In this document: one piece after another, positions 2,940-9,951 of the stretch
How positions within the stretch are numbered: the stretch's first letter is position 1
Layout of the letters: the number at the start of each line of letters is the position of its first letter
Assembly: GCF_000019345.1 (NCBI RefSeq)
Contig: NC_010503.1
Location: 570,001 to 602,000 of the forward strand
Reading direction: 5' to 3'
DNA: 32,000 nucleotides
DNA from: Ureaplasma parvum serovar 3 str. ATCC 27815
GTDB lineage: Bacteria > Bacillota_I > Bacilli_A > Mycoplasmatales > Mycoplasmoidaceae
Translations under genes and position numbers: made by a program
Notes under the pieces: model-generated
The model's input: the letters and a program-made list of their open reading frames with translations, nothing else
The model's database searches: none
Told to the model about the DNA's origin: nothing

Positions 2940-2973
2940 AAAAAAAAAAAAAAAAGACCATTGATTGGCCTTT
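2940..2973 (-). terminator. Intrinsic terminator downstream of the 3085..6396 lipoprotein gene, with an unusually long T16 tail (A16 on the + strand, 2940..2955)
   Basis: The minus-strand RNA reads AAAGGCCA-aucaa-UGGUCUUU (8 bp including one G-U, 5-nt loop, 2953..2973) and runs directly into the U tract. It lies 112 nt after the TAA at 3087-3085 and 81 nt before the next ATG at 2858. Confidence 0.6.
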
Positions 2974-3046: not shown

Positions 3047-3071
3047 TTTGTGTAAAATCTTTGTGTAAAAT
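3047..3071 (+). repeat. Tandem direct repeat of the 12-mer TTTGTGTAAAAT (3047..3058 and 3060..3071, 1-nt spacer)
   Basis: Read directly from the sequence: tttgtgtaaaat c tttgtgtaaaat. It sits 14 nt outside the stop codon of the 3085..6396 gene. A third exact copy lies on the opposite strand at 6422..6433. Confidence 0.9.
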
Positions 3072-3084
3072 ATACTCTCATATC

Positions 3085-6000
3085 TTAGTTTACTTTAGGA
3101 ATTTTATGACCATTAATTTTAATACTCTTTAAAAATTGTGTAGAGATCTGATTTGAATCAAGATTTGAGCATATATCTTTTAAATCATTTAATCAATAAC
3201 AATTTTCATTAGTTAGTGTAATTTCAACACTTTTATTATTATTTTTATTAATTTTTGCAACTATTTTTGACTCTAAAGTATCCCCATCGCTATTGTTATA
3301 TACATAATTTAATTCAATATTACATTCTTTATCTTGGGATAAATTACTTAAAAATATATCTTGATCAAAAGTAATATTAATTTTTGGATCAGATCCATTA
3401 ACTTCATATTTAATATTATCTACTTTTCATTTTAAATTGGGATTTAAGATTCCAGGAAAATTAAAATAGCGTTGGTTATCTACTCAAGTTAAATCTAAAT
3501 TTTTATCATTCAATTGAATTGAATTAATTCGATATTTAATATCAGGCTTTAAATATTTTAATTCAAATTCAATTGTTTGGTGCTCATAGTCGATTTTTAA
3601 TTGGTTATGAGCATTTAAATCAATACATTCTTGTTGGTTGTTTTCATCTTCTAACACTAATGACATTTTATGGGCGTTTTTATCTTTAAAGATGAAATCG
3701 CTAAAATGCAACTTGAATTTAATGTTTTTTTGTTGTTGGTTAATTTCATGATCAATTTTATCTAAGTAAAATTGATCAAAGCCGTAATCTAAAGTTTTAA
3801 AAGTCTTATTATTGATATTTTTTAAATTAATCTGTTGCTTATCAATAAAAAGTTCACTAATTTCATAATCAGTATTAATGTTTAAGTTATCTAATTTAGT
3901 TGAGATTTGGTGTGTTTTTTTATCAAAATAAAAATCTGTTTTAAATAAATACAACAGCTTGTTTGTTTTTTTATTTTTTAAAATAACATCAACTCTTTTT
4001 GGCATATTTATAACTGCTTGGTTTAGTGTTAATTTTAAAGTACTATTTGTATTTTTAATATCATTAAATTCTAAATTTAATAATAAATGTGGAGATGATT
4101 CATTAAGTGTTTTAACTGTAATATTATTAGTTAAATAATTGTCATCATCTATTTCAAAAGAAATAAGTTTAAATGTTTGATTTTTATCTAAAGCAAAAAG
4201 ATGTAAAATAATGTTTTTTGTTGCATTAAGTTGAGTAGTTTCTGATTTTGATAAGTTTTTAACAAACTTATATTTATTATGATTTTCATCTTCTAAAGTA
4301 TATTTTATTTTATGCTCAATACTATCAGCATATTGATTGTCTTGTAAATCAACATTTAGATCGGTTGAAGTTGATTTTGTATTTGTGAATGAAAAAACAG
4401 CTTTTTTGAACTCATTTGTTTTAAATTTAAGAAATGAAAGATCCAAGTGAAATGGATGAGAATCAAAAAAATCTCCTATATAAACATTTACATTAAAATT
4501 ATCACTATGGTAATTACCATCAACATCTTCTAAGATAAAACTTACAAATTCATAATTAATATGATTATCTAAATTTAATAATTTAATTTTAATTGTTTTT
4601 TGATCTTCATCAATACTCATGAAGCAATTTTTATCTTCAAAACTAAACTCCTTATATGCTCATTCATTTGGATTATTTAATGGATGATATCTTAATTTAA
4701 TTTTGGGTTTTAAAGAATTTTCTTTTCTTAAAAGTAATTTTTCACATTTAATATTAATAATCGCACTATTTTTAGTAATATCCGAAATGAAAAGGTGTTC
4801 TTTATAATCTTTTTTTACTTCTTTTGATCTTTCATTATCATCTTTTTTAGAAACTGATAAATATCAAAACCAACTATTAAAAGCACTATAGTAAGAATTA
4901 TAGAATGATTTATCTTTAAAAATTTCAATACTTGATCGATCAGGACGTATTTTAAATGTTTTGTTAATAGGTCCATAATATCCACCTGCATAGTCATCAT
5001 CATTAGGGAAAGATACTGGTTTACCGTTTAGTAAAATATTATCAATTTCATAAGTTTTGTCAACATCTAAACCATTAATTACAGCAGTTAATAAACGTTC
5101 TTGTTCATCGTATTTAACTTCTGAGAATTCAATTGGGTTTTGATCATTTTCTTTTCTAATTAAAAATTTAAAATTATGAATATTAGGATTGTAGAAAGCA
5201 AGATCTTCAGATAATTTTACTTTAATTGTAACTGCTTTTGTAATTTTATCAACAGCTGTTTCATAATCAATAGCTTCAACTTTAGCATAATCGCCTTTTG
5301 TTGTAAAATCATGTGTTTGATTATTTAAATTTAAAACTTGATCATTAATCTTAATTTGTTTAATATCATAATGAGTTCCTCTTTCTAATTCATCAACATA
5401 AACAATAATTCTCTTGTTTAATTTATCAATAAAAAAATGCTTCTTATTAAGCTCTAATTGACCTTTTTTATAAACTCTATTATATGCTAAACTAATGTGG
5501 ATATTATTTAAAGCTTCATCACTATCATCTTTTATTTTTAACTCTTTAAAATTTAAAGTTAAATTAGCACCATTATCATTAATCTTTGTAATTTCTAGAT
5601 TTTTTAAAAGATTATCACTATCATCAAGGGTTTTAAAAGTGTGGTTTGGAATTGAAGTTAATTGAATTTTTTGATTATTAAAATTAAGTTTATCTAATAA
5701 ATATTCACAATCAGATGTTAAATTATAAACGGTAGCATCAATTTCATTTTTTTGCTTATTGAAAACAGCATCACTAGTAATGATTTGGTGATTAGTTTTT
5801 TTGATAATTTTTAAACTAAAATTATGAATAGCATCGTCTTTAAAAGAAACTGTTTTTAACTTAATCTTTATATCAACTTGGTTTTGTTTAATATTTGTAA
5901 ACGAAATATTATTAATTTCTAAATGATCAATCTTTGGTGTATTAGGAAGTGATGGTTGTAAATTTAAATCTTCATTAATATCTTGTTCGATAAAATTTAA

Positions 6001-6396
6001 ATTATGATCAAAAATTAAATGTAGTGCAGGAAATGCATCATTTGAAAAATTAGTGATAAAATGATCATTAATTTTTGGTTTACGAGCTAGTCTTAAATAA
6101 ATTTTGTTATTAATAATCAAAGGATGAATATTTTCTAAACGGTCAACTTTTTTATTTAACAATGGATTAAAAAGATTGGTGTTTAAAGTTAAATTCTTAT
6201 AAATACCTTGCGAAGTATTTAGTTCATTAACTTCATAAACAACATAATAATGGTCACTCTTGGTATGAATTATATCTTTCATTAAAACATTAACATTTAA
6301 CTTTGATTTATTGCTACAAGATGCAAGTGCTGTAGCAACAATAGGAACTAAAGCAGCTGTAAATAAAAATAATAACTTTTTCTTAATTAATTTCAT
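3085..6396 (-). CDS. Large modular surface lipoprotein, 1103 aa (paralog of 11592..14333)
   Basis: ORF-track pieces 4864..6396 and 3484..4620 are in the same frame and are joined by TGA codons. I found no in-frame TAA/TAG until the TAA at 3087-3085. The signal peptide MKLIKKKLLFLFTAALVPIVATALAS-C has lipobox LASC. AAGGA lies upstream of the ATG. Module-end signatures include CEYLLDKLNFNNQKIQL, THYDIKQIKINDQVLNL, KTYEIDNILLNGKPVSF, TDYEISELFIDKQQINL and IKYRINSIQLNDKNLDL. Confidence 0.85.
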
Positions 6397-6421
6397 AATT
6401 TTATATCCTTAATAATAACTA

Positions 6422-6433
6422 ATTTTACACAAA
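6422..6433 (-). promoter_or_regulatory. Inverted third copy of TTTGTGTAAAAT; contains a -10-like TAAAAT 25 nt upstream of the lipoprotein ATG at 6396
   Basis: The + strand reads attttacacaaa, which is the reverse complement of the 12-mer. A second candidate -10, a perfect TATAAT, is on the minus strand at 6452..6447. No transcript mapping is possible from sequence alone. Confidence 0.3.
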
Positions 6434-6470
6434 ACAATACGACATCATTATAACCCATAAACATCAATTC

Positions 6471-6518
6471 AAAAAAAAAAAAAAAACACTGCTTTTAATA
6501 CCTTAATAAAAGCGGTGT
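6471..6518 (-). promoter_or_regulatory. Orphan hairpin plus 16-nt homopolymer (A16 on +, T16 on -) 74 nt upstream of the lipoprotein gene start
   Basis: A16 spans 6471..6486. The adjacent 11-12 bp stem pairs 6486..6497 with 6507..6518 (ACACTGCTTTT / AAAAGCGGTGT). The one imperfect position is a G-U on the + transcript and a C-A mismatch on the - transcript. It is terminator-like, but no upstream gene on either strand needs terminating here, since ackA diverges from 6667. Confidence 0.35.
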
Positions 6519-6666
6519 TTAAATAAGTGAATAAATAAAAAATAATTGAATTTAGATTATTAAAAAAGCATATGCACATATAGTAAAATAATAAATAAAG
6601 TGCTGATCAAAAGCCAGAATTGTTTATTTTTGGTTTTAAAGTTTAGTTAATAAGTGGTGGTTAATT

Positions 6667-7830
6667 ATGATGTTAATAATTAATATTGGTAGTAGTAGTT
6701 GAAAATTTTGCTTGTTTGATATGAATTTAAAACAAATATTTAGTGGCAAAATTCGCTTAGACGTTAGCCCACACCAACTAAAATATATCTTTGATAAAAA
6801 TGAATATGTTTATTTACTTGATGATGATCACAACAATCACGTTGATTTAATCATTAAATTTTTAATTAACAAAAAAATTATTAAAAAATTAGAAGATATC
6901 ACTTATTTTGGAATTCGAGCTGTTTATGTTAAAAATTTTTATGGAGCAAGTGCTTTTTTAAATAATGAAATTTATAATGATCTTAACCAACACACAGATT
7001 TATGTCCTATTCACAACCAAAATACTATCATGTTAATTAATGACATTAAGCATTTAAACACCTCTGCAAAAATTATTATTATTTTTGATAATTGGTTTCA
7101 TCGTAGTATTAATAAAAATAAATACACTATTGCTATTGATCAAACAATAGCAATAAAACATAAAATTCGTAAATATGGTTTTCATGGAATTTCTTTTAGT
7201 TATAGTAATAAAATAATGCAAAATTATTTAGGAAAACAAGATGTTAATTTAATTATTTTACACTTAGGTTCTGGATCGTCAGTTTGTGCAATTAAAAATG
7301 GAAAATCATTTGATACCTCAATGTCTTACTCTCCTCTTTCAGGAATTATTATGAATACAAGAAGTGGTGATATAGACCCTAGTGTTTTACTTACTTTAAA
7401 AAAAGTAAAAAACCAATCACTGAAGCAATTGATCTTATTTTTAAATCAGCAATCAGGTCTTTATGGATTAACAAAACATCATAGTATTAGTGAAGTTGCT
7501 AATAATTTGCACAATAAAAATAATGAACTTGCCCTTGAGATGTACACTGATAGCATTGTTGATTATTTTATTAAGTATTTAAACCATTTACAAAAGATTG
7601 ATGCAATTGTATTTTCGGGAGGAATTAGTGAATTTGAGCATCTTGTTTTAGAAAAAATTATTAGTAAAATTCATCTAATAAACCTTGAAATTAACGATCA
7701 TTTAATACTAACAAACACGTTAAATAAAATTTCAACATCTAAATCACAAATTCCTATATATTTATGTTTAGTGAATGAAGAGCACGAAATTGCTTATGAA
7801 ATGCTAAATTTAATTAATAAGACAAAATAA
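6667..7830 (+). CDS. ackA: Acetate kinase (divergent)
   Basis: Extending ORF 6712..7830 upstream across one TGA to the ATG at 6667 gives MMLIINIGSSSWKFCLF, the N.GSSS.K phosphate-binding motif. Other AckA blocks are present: PIHNQ (PLHNP), FDNWFH, YGFHGISFSY, HLGSGSSVCAIKNGKSFDTSMSYSPLSGIIMNTRSGDIDP and a C-terminal VNEEHEIA. Several blocks are degenerate, for example GISEF where GIGEN is usual. Confidence 0.85.
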
Positions 7831-7833
7831 AAA

Positions 7834-9951
7834 TTATTCATGATAGTCAGCACTATGAATAATAGAAAAATACTTATCTAATGATTTGTTAAATTCAATA
7901 TTTTGATTATTTACTTTAACATCAACAAAATCATAAACAATTTGGTCCTCAATATTTTCAAATTTTGCTATTAAAGTTTTCTTATTTACATCATATTCCA
8001 AAGTTTTTGGGCTTATCAGATTAGTAGTGTATCCTGTTCGTTTTTTAATTGTAAATGTAAAATTATTAGATGAAGTGGGATTTGTGGGAATATTATCAAA
8101 TTTTAATTTGATTGTTGTTAATTTAGTTTCTTTATTATAAGATTTACTAATTTCATTTACATTAAATTTAGTTTTATAATCACTATTTTTAGTATCAAAA
8201 TCAAGCGGGATATTAAAAGGATGGTTATGATGATTTGTATTTTTTTTTAAAAATTCAGGTTTGTTTAATAATTGTTTATTTTTATAATCATTAATAACAA
8301 AGTCAATAACTTCATATGATTTATTTGATTCTAAATCATTAATTGTTACATTCAATATGTGGTTATGAACCAAACCCTCAACAGTATTATTAGTAGTATC
8401 AATACTATTAGATGATGGTTTTAGTCTATATTTGACACTAACTTTATCACCATCAACTAAATCAAAATCATCTTCTAAATGAAACTCTAATTTAGCGGAT
8501 TTATCGGTTGAACTATAAGAAATCTTTTTGATTTTAATTTTTGCTTGAGGTGTATTAAAACTACCATTTAATCCTTGAGTATTTACTTCTAAAGCTTGTT
8601 TTTCACTAAAATCTTGTAGATCATCAAAAACTAGTTTAGAAAAAGTGTATTTTCGGTTTGATAAAACTTTATCGAAACTAAATTCGTACTCTTTTTTTGT
8701 GGGATCAAATAAAACAGGTTTTGATACAATGATGTTATTTGCATTATCCATGTATACTAATTTTAAATATTTATTTTTTAAATAATTAACGTTATTTTCA
8801 AAATATAATTTAATCTTAACACTCAAATTTTCATCATTAAATCAAAAATCACTGCTTTCATGTTCTAAGTTCTCTAATCTTTGAACAGTAGTTAATTTTG
8901 TAGAGGTTAAAATATTTAAATCTAAATTAGCTAATGATATTGGCTGTCCATTAAGAGTTAATGAATTTAATGAGTATTTTGTACTAGTTTGTAAACCCGT
9001 TAAATTAAATGATAAGGTCTTTTTAGAGTTATTGTAAACATAATTTTCAAAACTAAAAGTATTTGATGGTTGGTGTGCTGAAACTAATTTTAAAACAAAT
9101 TTTTGATTATTTAAATCACCTAACTTATTATCTTTAAAATAAAAAATCAATTTTGCACTAGTATCATAAATTTCTTTTTCAATTTTGGTGATGTTTAAAT
9201 CTTTAATAATCGGGTTTGAGTTTTGCTTATTAGTATTAGATAATACTAAATTTTGGTTACTAAAAACTAACTCTTTATTATTTAAAACAATCCTATGAAT
9301 TTGGTATTTAGCGTTGTTTTCTAATTGAGTAAAATTAAATGTTATCGATGGCGAATTTGGTTGATAATTAAACTTAAATTTTGTAATTTGTTGGGTTTGT
9401 AAATTTAATAAACTAATCTCAAAAATATTTTGGTTTTCGTTCGCTAAAAAATATTTTGTAAATTCTAAATTTAAATCAGCACTATTATTAGTAATATTTT
9501 TTCAATCAATTTTTTTTATACTAAATTGATCTACATTTTCTTGTGTTAATGTACTTGTTATAAAATCTAGTTTAGTTATTAGCTGTTTTTGATTATTAAT
9601 TAATAAATCTACTAATTCATAACCCATATTTGGTTTTAATTCATTAATAATTAATTTATTAAGATCATTATCCTTAACTAATTTTAAATTATTAATTGTT
9701 TTTAAATCACCAGTTGCTTTTTCTTTTAAAACAACACTGTATGAATGTGATGCTAAAACTGCACTACCTTCTAAAAATAACTCAATACTATTAGTAGTTG
9801 TTTTAAATTTTTTTATTTTAAAAAGCACTTGTTTATCATCAACCTTACTTTTTGATTTAGTGCATGCACCAATTAAGCAAGATAAACCAATAATTAAAGT
9901 ACTACAAGTTAAAATTGTAATTATTTTAGTTAAATGTTTTTTAGTTATCAT
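7834..9951 (-). CDS. Modular surface lipoprotein, 705 aa
   Basis: ORF-track pieces 9502..9951, 8842..9150 and 7834..8826 share one frame. The gaps contain only TGA codons and no TAA/TAG (hand checked). The true stop is TAA at 7836-7834. The signal peptide MITKKHLTKIITILTCSTLIIGLSCLIGA-C has lipobox IGAC. AAGGA lies upstream. There are six modules of ~105-110 aa, ending MGYELVDLLINNQKQL, TKYSLNSLTLNGQPISL, RKYTFSKLVFDD, KSYEVIDFVINDYKNK and IVYDFVDVKVNNQNIEF. Confidence 0.85.

What the first reader, a model, noticed from the sequence alone, without database searches (positions are those of the whole stretch)
6471..6518. Orphan hairpin plus exact 16-nt homopolymer in the divergent ackA/lipoprotein promoter region
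A16 (T16 on the gene strand) abuts an 11-12 bp hairpin 74 nt upstream of the lipoprotein ATG. It looks like an intrinsic terminator, but nothing upstream on either strand can be terminated, because ackA diverges from 6667. On the gene strand the T tract ends 18 nt before a perfect TATAAT (6452..6447), so it overlaps the -35/UP-element position. All other homopolymers I saw in the window are 9 nt or shorter, so a 16-mer is a clear outlier and a classic slipped-strand substrate. Poly(A)/poly(T) promoter tracts switch vlp genes in M. hyorhinis. It could be a phase-variation switch, an insulator against read-through, or a 5' attenuator.
Basis: partly seen in the sequence, partly recalled or inferred. 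Interest (0 to 1): 0.6.

Follow-up and report, generated by a model that had tools for sequence, protein, structure and literature searches.

The report
Hypervariable poly(T) tract before lipoprotein promoter
A run of 16 T's with a terminator-like hairpin sits just upstream of a surface lipoprotein promoter in a Ureaplasma genome; its length changes between near-identical strains, and it is one of about ten such tracts clustered before surface-protein genes, so it may tune expression, though this was not measured.

Summary
A16 lies at 6471-6486 (T16 on the gene strand). It abuts a stable hairpin at 6487-6517. TATAAT follows 18 nt downstream, and the ATG of a 1103-aa DUF1410 lipoprotein is 74 nt downstream. 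ackA diverges at 6667. One side claim is wrong: a second hairpin+A16 lies at 2940-2955.

The tract is a true slippage hotspot. Thirteen assemblies carry 8, 14, 15, 16 (x5), 17, 18 (x3) and 19. Six of them are near-clonal (3-9 SNPs per 15 kb) yet carry five different lengths. Runs of 8-9 nt were unchanged in all but one assembly.

It belongs to a class. The genome has no A/T runs of 11-12 nt but ten of 13-18 nt. Seven lie within 120 nt upstream of lipoprotein or MBA-paralogue genes (p about 5e-8). Two congeners show the same pattern.

The tract is not in a -35/-10 spacer, so a vlp-type ON/OFF switch does not fit. Terminator-only tracts vary just as much, so variability alone does not prove a function.

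Best reading: an insulating terminator whose runaway U-tail also forms the -31 to -46 flank of a promoter with a -10 box and no recognisable -35 box. Length changes would then tune expression, as at H. pylori sabA, rather than switch it. Other first readers of this scan had flagged sister tracts in this genome one at a time.

The parts
6471..6486 (-). T16 homopolymer (A16 on + strand). It is hypervariable among strains: 8, 14, 15, 16, 17, 18 and 19 nt were seen.
6487..6517 (-). Terminator-type hairpin abutting the T tract, with arms of about 11 nt and a 9-nt loop. The loop is flipped in the sister species.
   Evidence: (-12.1 kcal/mol, best 0.6% of random 44-mers)
6447..6452 (-). Perfect TATAAT, the likely -10 box, 18 nt downstream of the tract. 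There is no recognisable -35 box.
   Evidence: This stretch is 100% identical in the sister species. The transcription start is not mapped.
6422..6433 (-). TTTGTGTAAAAT motif in the leader. It holds an alternative -10 candidate (TAAAAT). The core TTGTGTAAA recurs next to other long tracts.
6406..6410 (-). Shine-Dalgarno-like AAGGA, 9 nt before the ATG
   Evidence: read from sequence
3085..6396 (-). Gene for the 1103-aa lipoprotein (lipobox ALASC, DUF1410). It is split by frameshifts in some strains.
2940..2973 (-). Second hairpin (2973-2956) plus T16 (2955-2940). It lies 129 nt after the lipoprotein stop codon and 81 nt before the ATG of the giant MBA-paralogue gene. Length is 14-17 nt among strains.
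6667..7830 (+). ackA (acetate kinase), divergent from the lipoprotein gene
7834..9951 (-). Gene for a 705-aa DUF1410 lipoprotein. It converges on ackA with a 3-nt gap and is a possible source of read-through on the - strand.

Best explanation
The element is a slippage-prone poly(T) tract fused to an intrinsic-terminator-type hairpin, placed directly in front of a lipoprotein promoter that has a -10 box and no recognisable -35 box.

Shown: the T run changes length very fast, differing even between near-clonal strains. It is one of ten 13-18-nt A/T runs in this roughly 752-kb Ureaplasma parvum-like genome. Seven of the ten lie 44-95 nt upstream of genes for large surface proteins (lipoproteins and MBA N-terminal paralogues). 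The same association is seen in two other species of the genus.

Inferred: the hairpin plus U-run stops transcription entering from the ackA side. That transcription could be divergent or spurious initiation in the AT-rich spacer, or antisense read-through from the 705-aa gene, which ends 3 nt from ackA. The lipoprotein gene would then be driven only by its own promoter. The gene is closed off downstream by a second hairpin+T16.

Inferred: if transcription starts about 7 nt after TATAAT, the tract occupies about -31 to -46, which is the -35/UP-element position. Gain or loss of T's would then shift and rotate everything upstream relative to the core promoter. Transcription would be tuned in steps, like a rheostat, rather than flipped ON/OFF.
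For: Anatomy: hairpin, T16, 18 nt, TATAAT, SD, ATG.

Hypermutability: 13 assemblies carry 8, 14, 15, 16 x5, 17, 18 x3 and 19. Six near-clonal assemblies (3-9 SNPs per 15.4 kb) carry 16, 8, 15, 19, 18 and 16. Runs of 8-9 nt keep their length in every assembly where the flanks matched, except one T8-to-T9 change in one assembly.

Class: run lengths are bimodal, with ten runs of 13-18 nt. Seven of nine intergenic long runs lie within 120 nt upstream of a surface-protein gene. None of the 51 intergenic runs of 8-9 nt does so, and such positions make up 5.5% of intergenic bases (binomial p 5e-8). The loci share only 15-17-nt matches, so they are not large duplicated copies.

Other species: the sister species G017 has 16 such tracts, most again before membrane or lipoprotein genes, and keeps T16 here with a 100% identical promoter stretch. 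The distant congener G002 has T15, T17 and T25, each 22-24 nt before a TATAAT of a membrane-protein gene. It also has a hairpin+T17 81 nt before a lipoprotein ATG. Of 19 genomes in the genus, 17 have runs of 13 nt or more.

Terminator type: six of the ten tracts abut a stable hairpin, and five of those follow a gene or tRNA on the same strand. Ordinary terminator-like sites in this genome have T-runs of 4-8 nt.

Precedent: T or A tracts next to -35 act as rheostats in H. pylori sabA and other genes (PMC4081817).
Against: No transcript, start-site or expression data could be obtained, so termination, promoter position and any effect of length are all inferred.

The three terminator-only tracts vary over the same range (13-18 nt) as the promoter-proximal ones. 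Variation and the length distribution may therefore simply reflect mutation dynamics.

The distance from tract to the best -10 candidate is not constant across the seven loci (about 5, 18, 22 and 42-46 nt), which argues against one uniform promoter mechanism.

On the gene strand the G000 stem carries an A.C mismatch (-8.7 kcal/mol for the core), while the + strand version is better paired. The reverse holds in G017.

A T tract upstream of the M. agalactiae vpma promoter was shown experimentally to cause no ON/OFF variation (PMC2268961).

Long homopolymers are error-prone in every sequencing technology, so individual lengths, especially the single 8, may be assembly errors.
Confidence: 0.5

Rival explanations
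1. Neutral runaway. The T tract is only the over-expanded U-tail of a terminator, or an AT-rich spacer run, in an organism whose group is generally said to lack mismatch repair. That point is my own knowledge and was not checked here. Length drifts around a mutational equilibrium of about 14-19 nt and has no effect on lipoprotein expression.
For: Terminator-only tracts (genome 612766 and 621449) vary as much as promoter-proximal ones and over the same range. All ten tracts share one length range, 13-20 nt, whatever their context. Spacing to the -10 candidates is inconsistent among loci. The vpma T tract of M. agalactiae has no phase-variation role (PMC2268961).
Against: If long tracts had no effect, they should arise at any intergenic T8-9 seed. 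Yet 0 of 51 such seeds, against 7 of 9 long tracts, lie before surface-protein genes. None was found within 120 nt upstream of the roughly 550 other genes. The association recurs at non-orthologous genes in two other species. The terminator-only tracts are interrupted, ordinary T-rich tails in the sister species.
Confidence: 0.27
2. Classical Mollicute ON/OFF switch of the vlp/maa2/vmm type. Tract length sets the -35/-10 spacer, and only one length permits transcription.
For: The tract is a hypervariable homopolymer before a surface lipoprotein gene. A sister tract in this genome (genome 45227) does sit between TTGTTC and TATAAT. It is T18 here and T13 in the sister species, which would give a 17-nt spacer.
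Against: At this locus the tract ends 18 nt upstream of TATAAT. Its length therefore does not change any -35/-10 spacing. No -10-like hexamer directly follows the tract, and no -35-like hexamer precedes it at a workable distance.
Confidence: 0.08
3. 5' leader attenuator. Transcription starts upstream of the hairpin, in 6519-6666 on the - strand. The hairpin+U16 then prematurely terminates most transcripts before the lipoprotein gene.
For: The architecture is that of a canonical terminator, lying between a possible upstream AT-rich start region and the ATG. At the 5803-aa paralogue, a TGGTATAAT box lies upstream of that locus's hairpin and T18.
Against: The scan found no promoter-like site on the - strand in 6519-6666. 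A perfect TATAAT plus SD lies downstream of the tract and is 100% conserved in the sister species, while the stretch upstream of the hairpin is less conserved. No alternative anti-terminator structure stands out, and the fold z-score for the whole spacer is +1.27. There is no Rfam match.
Confidence: 0.08
4. The palindrome is a protein-binding operator centred about 62 bp upstream of the inferred start. The tract sets its helical phase relative to the promoter, in the way upstream repeats set the spacing of regulator sites at promoters such as N. meningitidis nadA.
For: The arms are kept while the loop is flipped between species. The centre falls near -62 if transcription starts 7 nt after TATAAT (inference).
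Against: Hairpins next to the other long tracts have unrelated sequences, so there is no shared operator. Small Mollicute genomes encode few regulators (own knowledge).
Confidence: 0.04

Closest known systems
H. pylori sabA-type T/A-tract rheostat (Aberg et al. 2014, PMC4081817)
   Same: Both have an intergenic poly(T) tract of about 13-18 nt next to the -35 position of a surface-protein (adhesin) promoter. In both, length is polymorphic among strains through slipped-strand mispairing, several loci in the genome are built alike, and the organism has few transcription factors.
   Different: Here the tract also forms the U-tail of a terminator-type hairpin, and no phased A-box UP-like elements have been defined. 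No footprint, reporter or expression data exist. The organism is a Mollicute whose promoter shows no recognisable -35 box.
M. hyorhinis vlp, M. arthritidis maa2 and M. mycoides vmm promoter-spacer repeats
   Same: Both involve a Mollicute, a surface lipoprotein gene and a hypermutable homopolymer or short repeat in the promoter region (as summarised in PMC2268961).
   Different: In those systems the repeat lies between -35 and -10 and switches transcription ON/OFF. Here it lies upstream of the -35 position.
M. agalactiae vpma promoter T tract (Chopra-Dewasthaly et al. 2008, PMC2268961)
   Same: Both have a homopolymeric T tract just upstream of the -10 region of a surface-lipoprotein promoter in a locus that also carries Rho-independent terminators.
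   Different: In phase-locked mutants that tract produced no ON/OFF variation. This is a caution against assuming a function here. Whether it tunes expression levels was not reported in the passages read.
Known Ureaplasma phase variation (mba locus and UU172 element; Zimmerman et al. 2011, PMC3047005; Paralanov et al. 2012, PMC3511179)
   Same: The organism group and gene superfamily are the same (MBA N-terminal paralogues, DUF1410 surface proteins). A simple repeat, (AT)9 near UU172, had earlier been proposed as a slippage switch.
   Different: The demonstrated mechanism there is site-specific DNA inversion at inverted repeats, not slippage. In the passages returned by my term searches of these two papers, no poly(T) tracts upstream of these genes were described.
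Canonical Rho-independent terminators
   Same: Both have a stable stem-loop followed directly by a U-run. Five sister tracts follow a gene or tRNA on the same strand.
   Different: The U-run is two to three times longer than the 4-8 nt typical of this genome's terminator-like sites. No same-strand gene lies upstream of this one.

Membership tests
Intrinsic (Rho-independent) terminator | Stable stem-loop immediately followed by a U-rich run on the transcribed strand | tested here: met
   The hairpin plus four U folds at -12.1 kcal/mol, in the best 0.6% of random 44-mers, and T16 follows directly. The core stem has one A.C mismatch on the gene strand.
Intrinsic (Rho-independent) terminator | Lies at the 3' end of a transcription unit on the same strand | tested here: not met
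   The neighbouring gene, ackA, diverges. This is the only strong terminator-like site in 58 divergent protein-gene spacers. No Rfam RNA lies upstream.
Intrinsic (Rho-independent) terminator | Transcripts end in the U-run in vivo | not testable with these tools
Mollicute promoter-spacer homopolymer switch (vlp/maa2/vmm type) | Repeat lies between the -35 and -10 hexamers, so its length sets the spacer | tested here: not met
   The tract ends 18 nt upstream of TATAAT. No -10-like hexamer abuts it, and no -35-like hexamer precedes it at a workable distance.
Mollicute promoter-spacer homopolymer switch (vlp/maa2/vmm type) | Downstream gene encodes a surface lipoprotein | tested here: met
   Lipobox ALASC and a DUF1410 domain at 28.2 bits against a cut-off of 25.5.
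Mollicute promoter-spacer homopolymer switch (vlp/maa2/vmm type) | Expression is ON at one tract length and OFF at the others | not testable with these tools
   No expression data were available.
-35-adjacent T/A-tract rheostat (H. pylori sabA type) | Homopolymer directly upstream of, or adjoining, the -35 position of the core promoter | tested here: inconclusive
   The tract spans about -31 to -46 only if transcription starts about 7 nt after TATAAT at 6452-6447. The start is not mapped, and a second -10 candidate (TAAAAT, 6427-6422) exists.
-35-adjacent T/A-tract rheostat (H. pylori sabA type) | Tract length is polymorphic among strains or clones | tested here: met
   Lengths of 8-19 nt in 13 assemblies, with five different lengths among six near-clonal assemblies. 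The caveat is that these are assembly consensus sequences, not reads.
-35-adjacent T/A-tract rheostat (H. pylori sabA type) | Graded, multiphasic promoter output as a function of tract length | not testable with these tools
   This needs reporters or RNA measurements.
Contingency locus (simple-sequence-repeat hypermutable site) | The repeat mutates far faster than the surrounding sequence | tested here: met
   Among six assemblies with 18 SNP sites in 15.4 kb, both long tracts differ in most pairs. All other indels are singletons.
Contingency locus (simple-sequence-repeat hypermutable site) | Repeats are concentrated at genes for surface or host-interaction proteins | tested here: met
   Seven of nine intergenic long tracts against a 5.5% expectation, p 5e-8. 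The pattern recurs in G017 and G002. (TA)8-13 repeats also lie before lipoprotein or MBA genes.
Contingency locus (simple-sequence-repeat hypermutable site) | Reversible change of phenotype within a clonal population | not testable with these tools
   No read-level or phenotype data were available.

The most novel reading that the evidence does not exclude
Ureaplasma may carry a genus-wide set of terminator-coupled poly(T) rheostats. Each large surface-protein gene would be insulated by a hairpin whose hypermutable U-tail doubles as the upstream flank of the next promoter. Replication slippage would then independently and reversibly tune the dose of 7-16 surface proteins. This would be a second, inversion-independent layer of surface variation, beside the recombinase-driven mba and UU172 switches.
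Probability: 0.25. Interest if true: 0.65.

Novelty: new member of a known kind. Interest (0 to 1): 0.52.

Why it matters
Ureaplasma parvum and U. urealyticum colonise the human urogenital tract and are linked to preterm birth and neonatal lung disease. The surface-variation mechanisms described for them in the papers I read are DNA inversion and change in repeat number within the MBA gene.

This work points to ten to sixteen hypervariable poly(T) tracts per genome, placed almost exclusively before lipoprotein and MBA-paralogue genes. That suggests a further, slippage-based layer of control over giant surface proteins that have barely been studied. It also gives concrete, cheap targets for testing: tract-length typing, start-site mapping and reporters.

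There are practical consequences too. These tracts are the fastest-changing sites between near-clonal isolates, so they could serve as fine-scale typing markers. They are also a predictable source of assembly error.

Tried and rejected
- **Read-level and RNA evidence.** I could not measure tract-length heterogeneity in reads or obtain RNA-seq coverage, starts or ends, and read laying could not be used.
- **Rfam.** There was no match in 6300-6760 at E up to 1, so no known riboswitch, leader or sRNA.
- **Whole-spacer RNA fold.** The z-score was +1.27, so nothing beyond the hairpin is structured.
- **The search for related loci with ackA in genome contigs.** It returned only distant acetate kinases from other phyla and no Ureaplasma loci.
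- **Access to whole strain genomes behind the fetched loci.** Strain comparison was therefore limited to 21-kb flanks around ackA and rpsD.
- **Rocha & Blanchard 2002.** This is the earlier survey of simple repeats in Mollicute genomes. It is not held in the library, so I could not check whether it lists these tracts.
- **Tract loci as paralogous copies of one promoter cassette.** Rejected, because they share only 15-17-nt matches.
- **Retention of long tracts in the sister species as evidence of selection.** Six of seven promoter-proximal tracts are retained against none of three terminator-only tracts. I rejected this as decisive. The promoter-proximal loci look far more similar between the species (about 98% identity measured at this locus; near-identical flanks at five others) than the four other tract loci (75-89% identity).
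- **The 42-codon frame running through the tract.** I considered it and dismissed it, because its frame changes with every length variant.

Full report
**1. What is there**

The window is bases 570001-602000 of a single 751,679-bp contig with 25.5% G+C that reads TGA as Trp. Several things point to Ureaplasma parvum:
- genome size and composition;
- DUF1410 surface proteins;
- the MBA-type N-terminal anchors described for U. parvum serovar 3 (PMC3047005);

I did not verify the name with a tool.

A16 occupies exactly 6471-6486. A 31-nt inverted repeat abuts it at 6487-6517. Read on the minus strand, the order is:
- hairpin;
- T16;
- 18 nt;
- a perfect TATAAT (6452-6447);
- a leader with AAGGA (6410-6406);
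- the ATG at 6396.

That ATG opens a 1103-aa protein with a lipobox (ALASC) and a DUF1410 domain. ackA (Pfam Acetate_kinase, E 1.6e-85) starts at 6667 on the other strand. Every coordinate in the finding is correct.

The gene-strand hairpin with its first four U's folds at -12.1 kcal/mol. That is within the best 0.6% of random 44-mers of this genome. No Rfam family matches the spacer. The spacer as a whole is no more structured than shuffles, with a z-score of +1.27.

**2. An outlier, but not a unique one**

Genome-wide, A/T runs fall off steeply. There are 1305 of 7 nt, then 337 of 8 nt, 29 of 9 nt, one of 10 nt and none of 11-12 nt. Ten runs of 13-18 nt then appear.

One of the ten is a second A16 in this same window, at 2940-2955. 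It also directly follows a hairpin on the minus strand. It lies 129 nt past the lipoprotein stop codon and 81 nt before the ATG of a giant MBA-paralogue gene.

The finding's remark that all other homopolymers in the window are 9 nt or shorter is therefore wrong. The same reader did list that tract separately. The lipoprotein gene is thus bracketed by two hairpin+T16 modules.

**3. The tract is hypervariable**

The exact ackA protein occurs on many public contigs. I examined eleven other assemblies plus the sister-species genome G017. Flanks are identical in the eleven assemblies, and G017 differs only within the hairpin.

Tract lengths across all thirteen are 8, 14, 15, 16 (five times, including this genome and G017), 17, 18 (three times) and 19.

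Six of these assemblies, including this genome, are near-clonal. They differ by 3-9 substitutions over 15.4 kb. Even so, they carry 16, 8, 15, 19, 18 and 16 at this tract, and 16, 15, 17, 17, 16 and 17 at the 2940 tract. Every other indel among them is a singleton.

Runs of 8-9 nt keep their length wherever they could be matched. The one exception is a T8-to-T9 change in one assembly.

There is a caveat. These are assembly consensus sequences, and long homopolymers are error-prone. The single value of 8 deserves particular caution.

**4. Variation alone does not prove function**

Around rpsD I measured three further tracts in ten assemblies.

| Tract (genome position) | Context | Lengths seen |
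|---|---|---|
| 611403 | before the 5803-aa MBA paralogue | 10-20 |
| 612766 | between convergent genes | 15-18 |
| 621449 | between tRNA genes | 13-18 |

Tracts with no downstream promoter vary as much as the others, and over the same range. Instability is a property of any long A/T run in this organism.

**5. Where the long tracts sit is far from random**

Of the ten tracts, seven lie 44-95 nt upstream of the ATG of a lipoprotein gene (838, 544 and 1103 aa) or an MBA N-terminal paralogue gene (775, 1025, about 4735-5754 and 5803 aa). The other three are terminator-only.

About 46 of roughly 602 predicted genes are surface-type by my crude rule. Only 5.5% of intergenic bases lie within 120 nt upstream of such a gene. 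Seven of nine intergenic long tracts do so, against none of 51 intergenic runs of 8-9 nt (binomial p 5e-8; Fisher p 9e-8). The tract loci share only 15-17-nt matches, so this is not one duplicated cassette.

The pattern recurs in other species:
- The sister species G017 has 16 tracts of 13-17 nt. Most lie before membrane or lipoprotein genes, some of them absent from this genome.
- The more distant congener G002 has T15, T17 and T25, each 22-24 nt before a TATAAT of a paralogous membrane-protein gene. It also has a hairpin+T17 81 nt before a lipoprotein ATG.
- Of 19 genomes in the genus, 17 have at least one run of 13 nt or more.

Long (TA)n repeats show the same bias. This is the classical genomic signature of contingency loci.

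It also argues against strict neutrality. If long tracts had no effect on expression, they should be tolerated upstream of the other roughly 550 genes as well.

**6. Mechanism: what the geometry allows**

In the vlp, maa2 and vmm switches the repeat lies between -35 and -10 (PMC2268961). Here the tract ends 18 nt upstream of the -10 box. Any length from 8 to 19 therefore leaves the core promoter untouched, and that mechanism is excluded at this locus.

One sister tract, at genome 45227, does have that geometry: TTGTTC, T18, four bases, TATAAT. It is T13 in G017, which gives a 17-nt spacer.

If transcription starts about 7 nt after TATAAT, the tract spans about -31 to -46. That is the -35/UP-element position. 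The closest characterised mechanism is the T-tract rheostat next to -35 in the H. pylori sabA promoter. [quoted passage not shown]

Two points count against a single uniform mechanism. First, the distance from tract to the best -10 candidate differs among the seven loci (about 5, 18, 22 and 42-46 nt). Second, a T tract upstream of the M. agalactiae vpma promoter was shown to give no ON/OFF variation (PMC2268961).

**7. The hairpin**

Six of the ten tracts abut a stable hairpin. Five of those six follow a gene or a tRNA on the same strand and so look like ordinary terminators with oversized tails. Terminator-like sites in this genome normally have T-runs of 4-8 nt.

This one is the exception. 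It is the only strong hairpin+T-run in any of 58 divergent protein-gene spacers. The possible sources of transcripts for it to stop are all inferred:
- divergent or spurious initiation in the AT-rich ackA promoter region;
- read-through from the 705-aa lipoprotein gene (7834-9951, minus strand), which ends 3 nt from the end of ackA with no room for a terminator. A weak terminator-like site lies inside ackA at 7156-7127.

The hairpin persists in G017, but its loop is inverted. The G017 sequence differs from this genome at 7 positions when read directly and at only 3 against the reverse complement. At genome 407521-407546, the hairpin of another tract is the exact reverse complement in G017, with 6 direct differences and 0 flipped.

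Pairing quality swaps strands between the two species at this locus. The comparison therefore does not tell which strand's RNA matters. The stretch from the tract through the ATG (columns 1-98 of the alignment) is 100% identical in G017, while the 150 nt upstream of the hairpin carry about seven changes.

**8. Verdict**

The tract is a genuine slippage hotspot. It belongs to a genus-wide class tied to surface-protein genes. It is not a vlp-type spacer switch.

My best reading (confidence 0.5) is an insulating terminator whose runaway U-tail doubles as the upstream flank of a promoter with a -10 box and no recognisable -35 box. Slippage would then tune expression rather than switch it. The rivals are:

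| Rival | Confidence |
|---|---|
| Neutral runaway tail | 0.27 |
| True ON/OFF switch | 0.08 |
| Leader attenuator | 0.08 |
| Phased operator | 0.04 |

In the two Ureaplasma papers I searched, no passage returned for my search terms describes poly(T) tracts before these genes. The older repeat survey that might list them is not held. I class the finding as a new member of a known kind, namely promoter-proximal simple-repeat contingency loci.

Noticed in passing
window 2940-2973: A second hairpin+A16 (T16 on the minus strand) lies between the stop codon of the 1103-aa lipoprotein gene and the ATG of the giant MBA-paralogue gene. Its length is 14-17 nt among ten assemblies. In the sister species a G.U pair in the stem becomes G-C.
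   Followed up: partly
window 6487-6517; L035:5521-5546 (genome 407521-407546): Two tract-adjacent hairpins have their loops inverted between this genome and the sister species G017. At the second locus the G017 hairpin is the exact reverse complement. This suggests recurrent flipping of small palindromes, similar to the hairpin-loop inversions known from chloroplast DNA.
   Followed up: partly
L033:5227-5244 (genome 45227-45244): A T18 lies between a TTGTTC hexamer and TATAAT, upstream of an 838-aa lipoprotein gene. The sister species has T13 there, which would give a 17-nt spacer. This tract is the better candidate in the genome for a vlp-type ON/OFF switch.
   Followed up: partly
L036:4972-4997 (genome 539972-539997); also genome 210165, 270438, 297433: A (TA)13 repeat directly abuts the ATG of a 1313-aa MBA paralogue. 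(TA)8-10 repeats lie upstream of three lipoprotein genes. Dinucleotide repeats therefore share the surface-gene bias of the long homopolymers.
   Followed up: no
window 6422-6433 and 3047-3071; genome 45174, 537478, 553408, 611431: The motif TTGTGTAAA occurs 24 times in the genome, and 7 copies lie within 140 nt of a long tract (expected 0.09). It may be a shared promoter or regulator element of these surface-protein genes.
   Followed up: partly
window 4464 (L029); L024; L030:8029-9728: The 1103-aa lipoprotein gene is split in two assemblies. In one the cause is an A7-to-A8 frameshift. In a third assembly most of the gene is replaced by restriction-modification-like genes (N6_N4_Mtase, ResIII), while the promoter and its T18 remain.
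   Followed up: partly
window 7830-7834 and 7127-7156: ackA and the 705-aa lipoprotein gene converge with only a 3-nt gap. The only terminator-like hairpin for the minus strand lies 680 nt further on, inside ackA, so antisense transcription across ackA seems likely.
   Followed up: no
L037:7403-7420 and L036:18382-18398 (genome 611403 and 553382): Two divergent spacers between an MBA paralogue and a lipoprotein gene share the flank AATTTATTTTGTGTAAA next to their homopolymer. On the same strand the homopolymer is A18 in one and T17 in the other. In the sister species the first of these tracts is absent.
   Followed up: partly
L154, L156, L157 (genome G002): A distant congener has three paralogous promoters built as T15, T17 or T25, then 22-24 nt, then TATAAT, before genes for membrane-anchored proteins. 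One of them begins T17-GAATTGATG, the same nine bases that follow the tract in this window.
   Followed up: no
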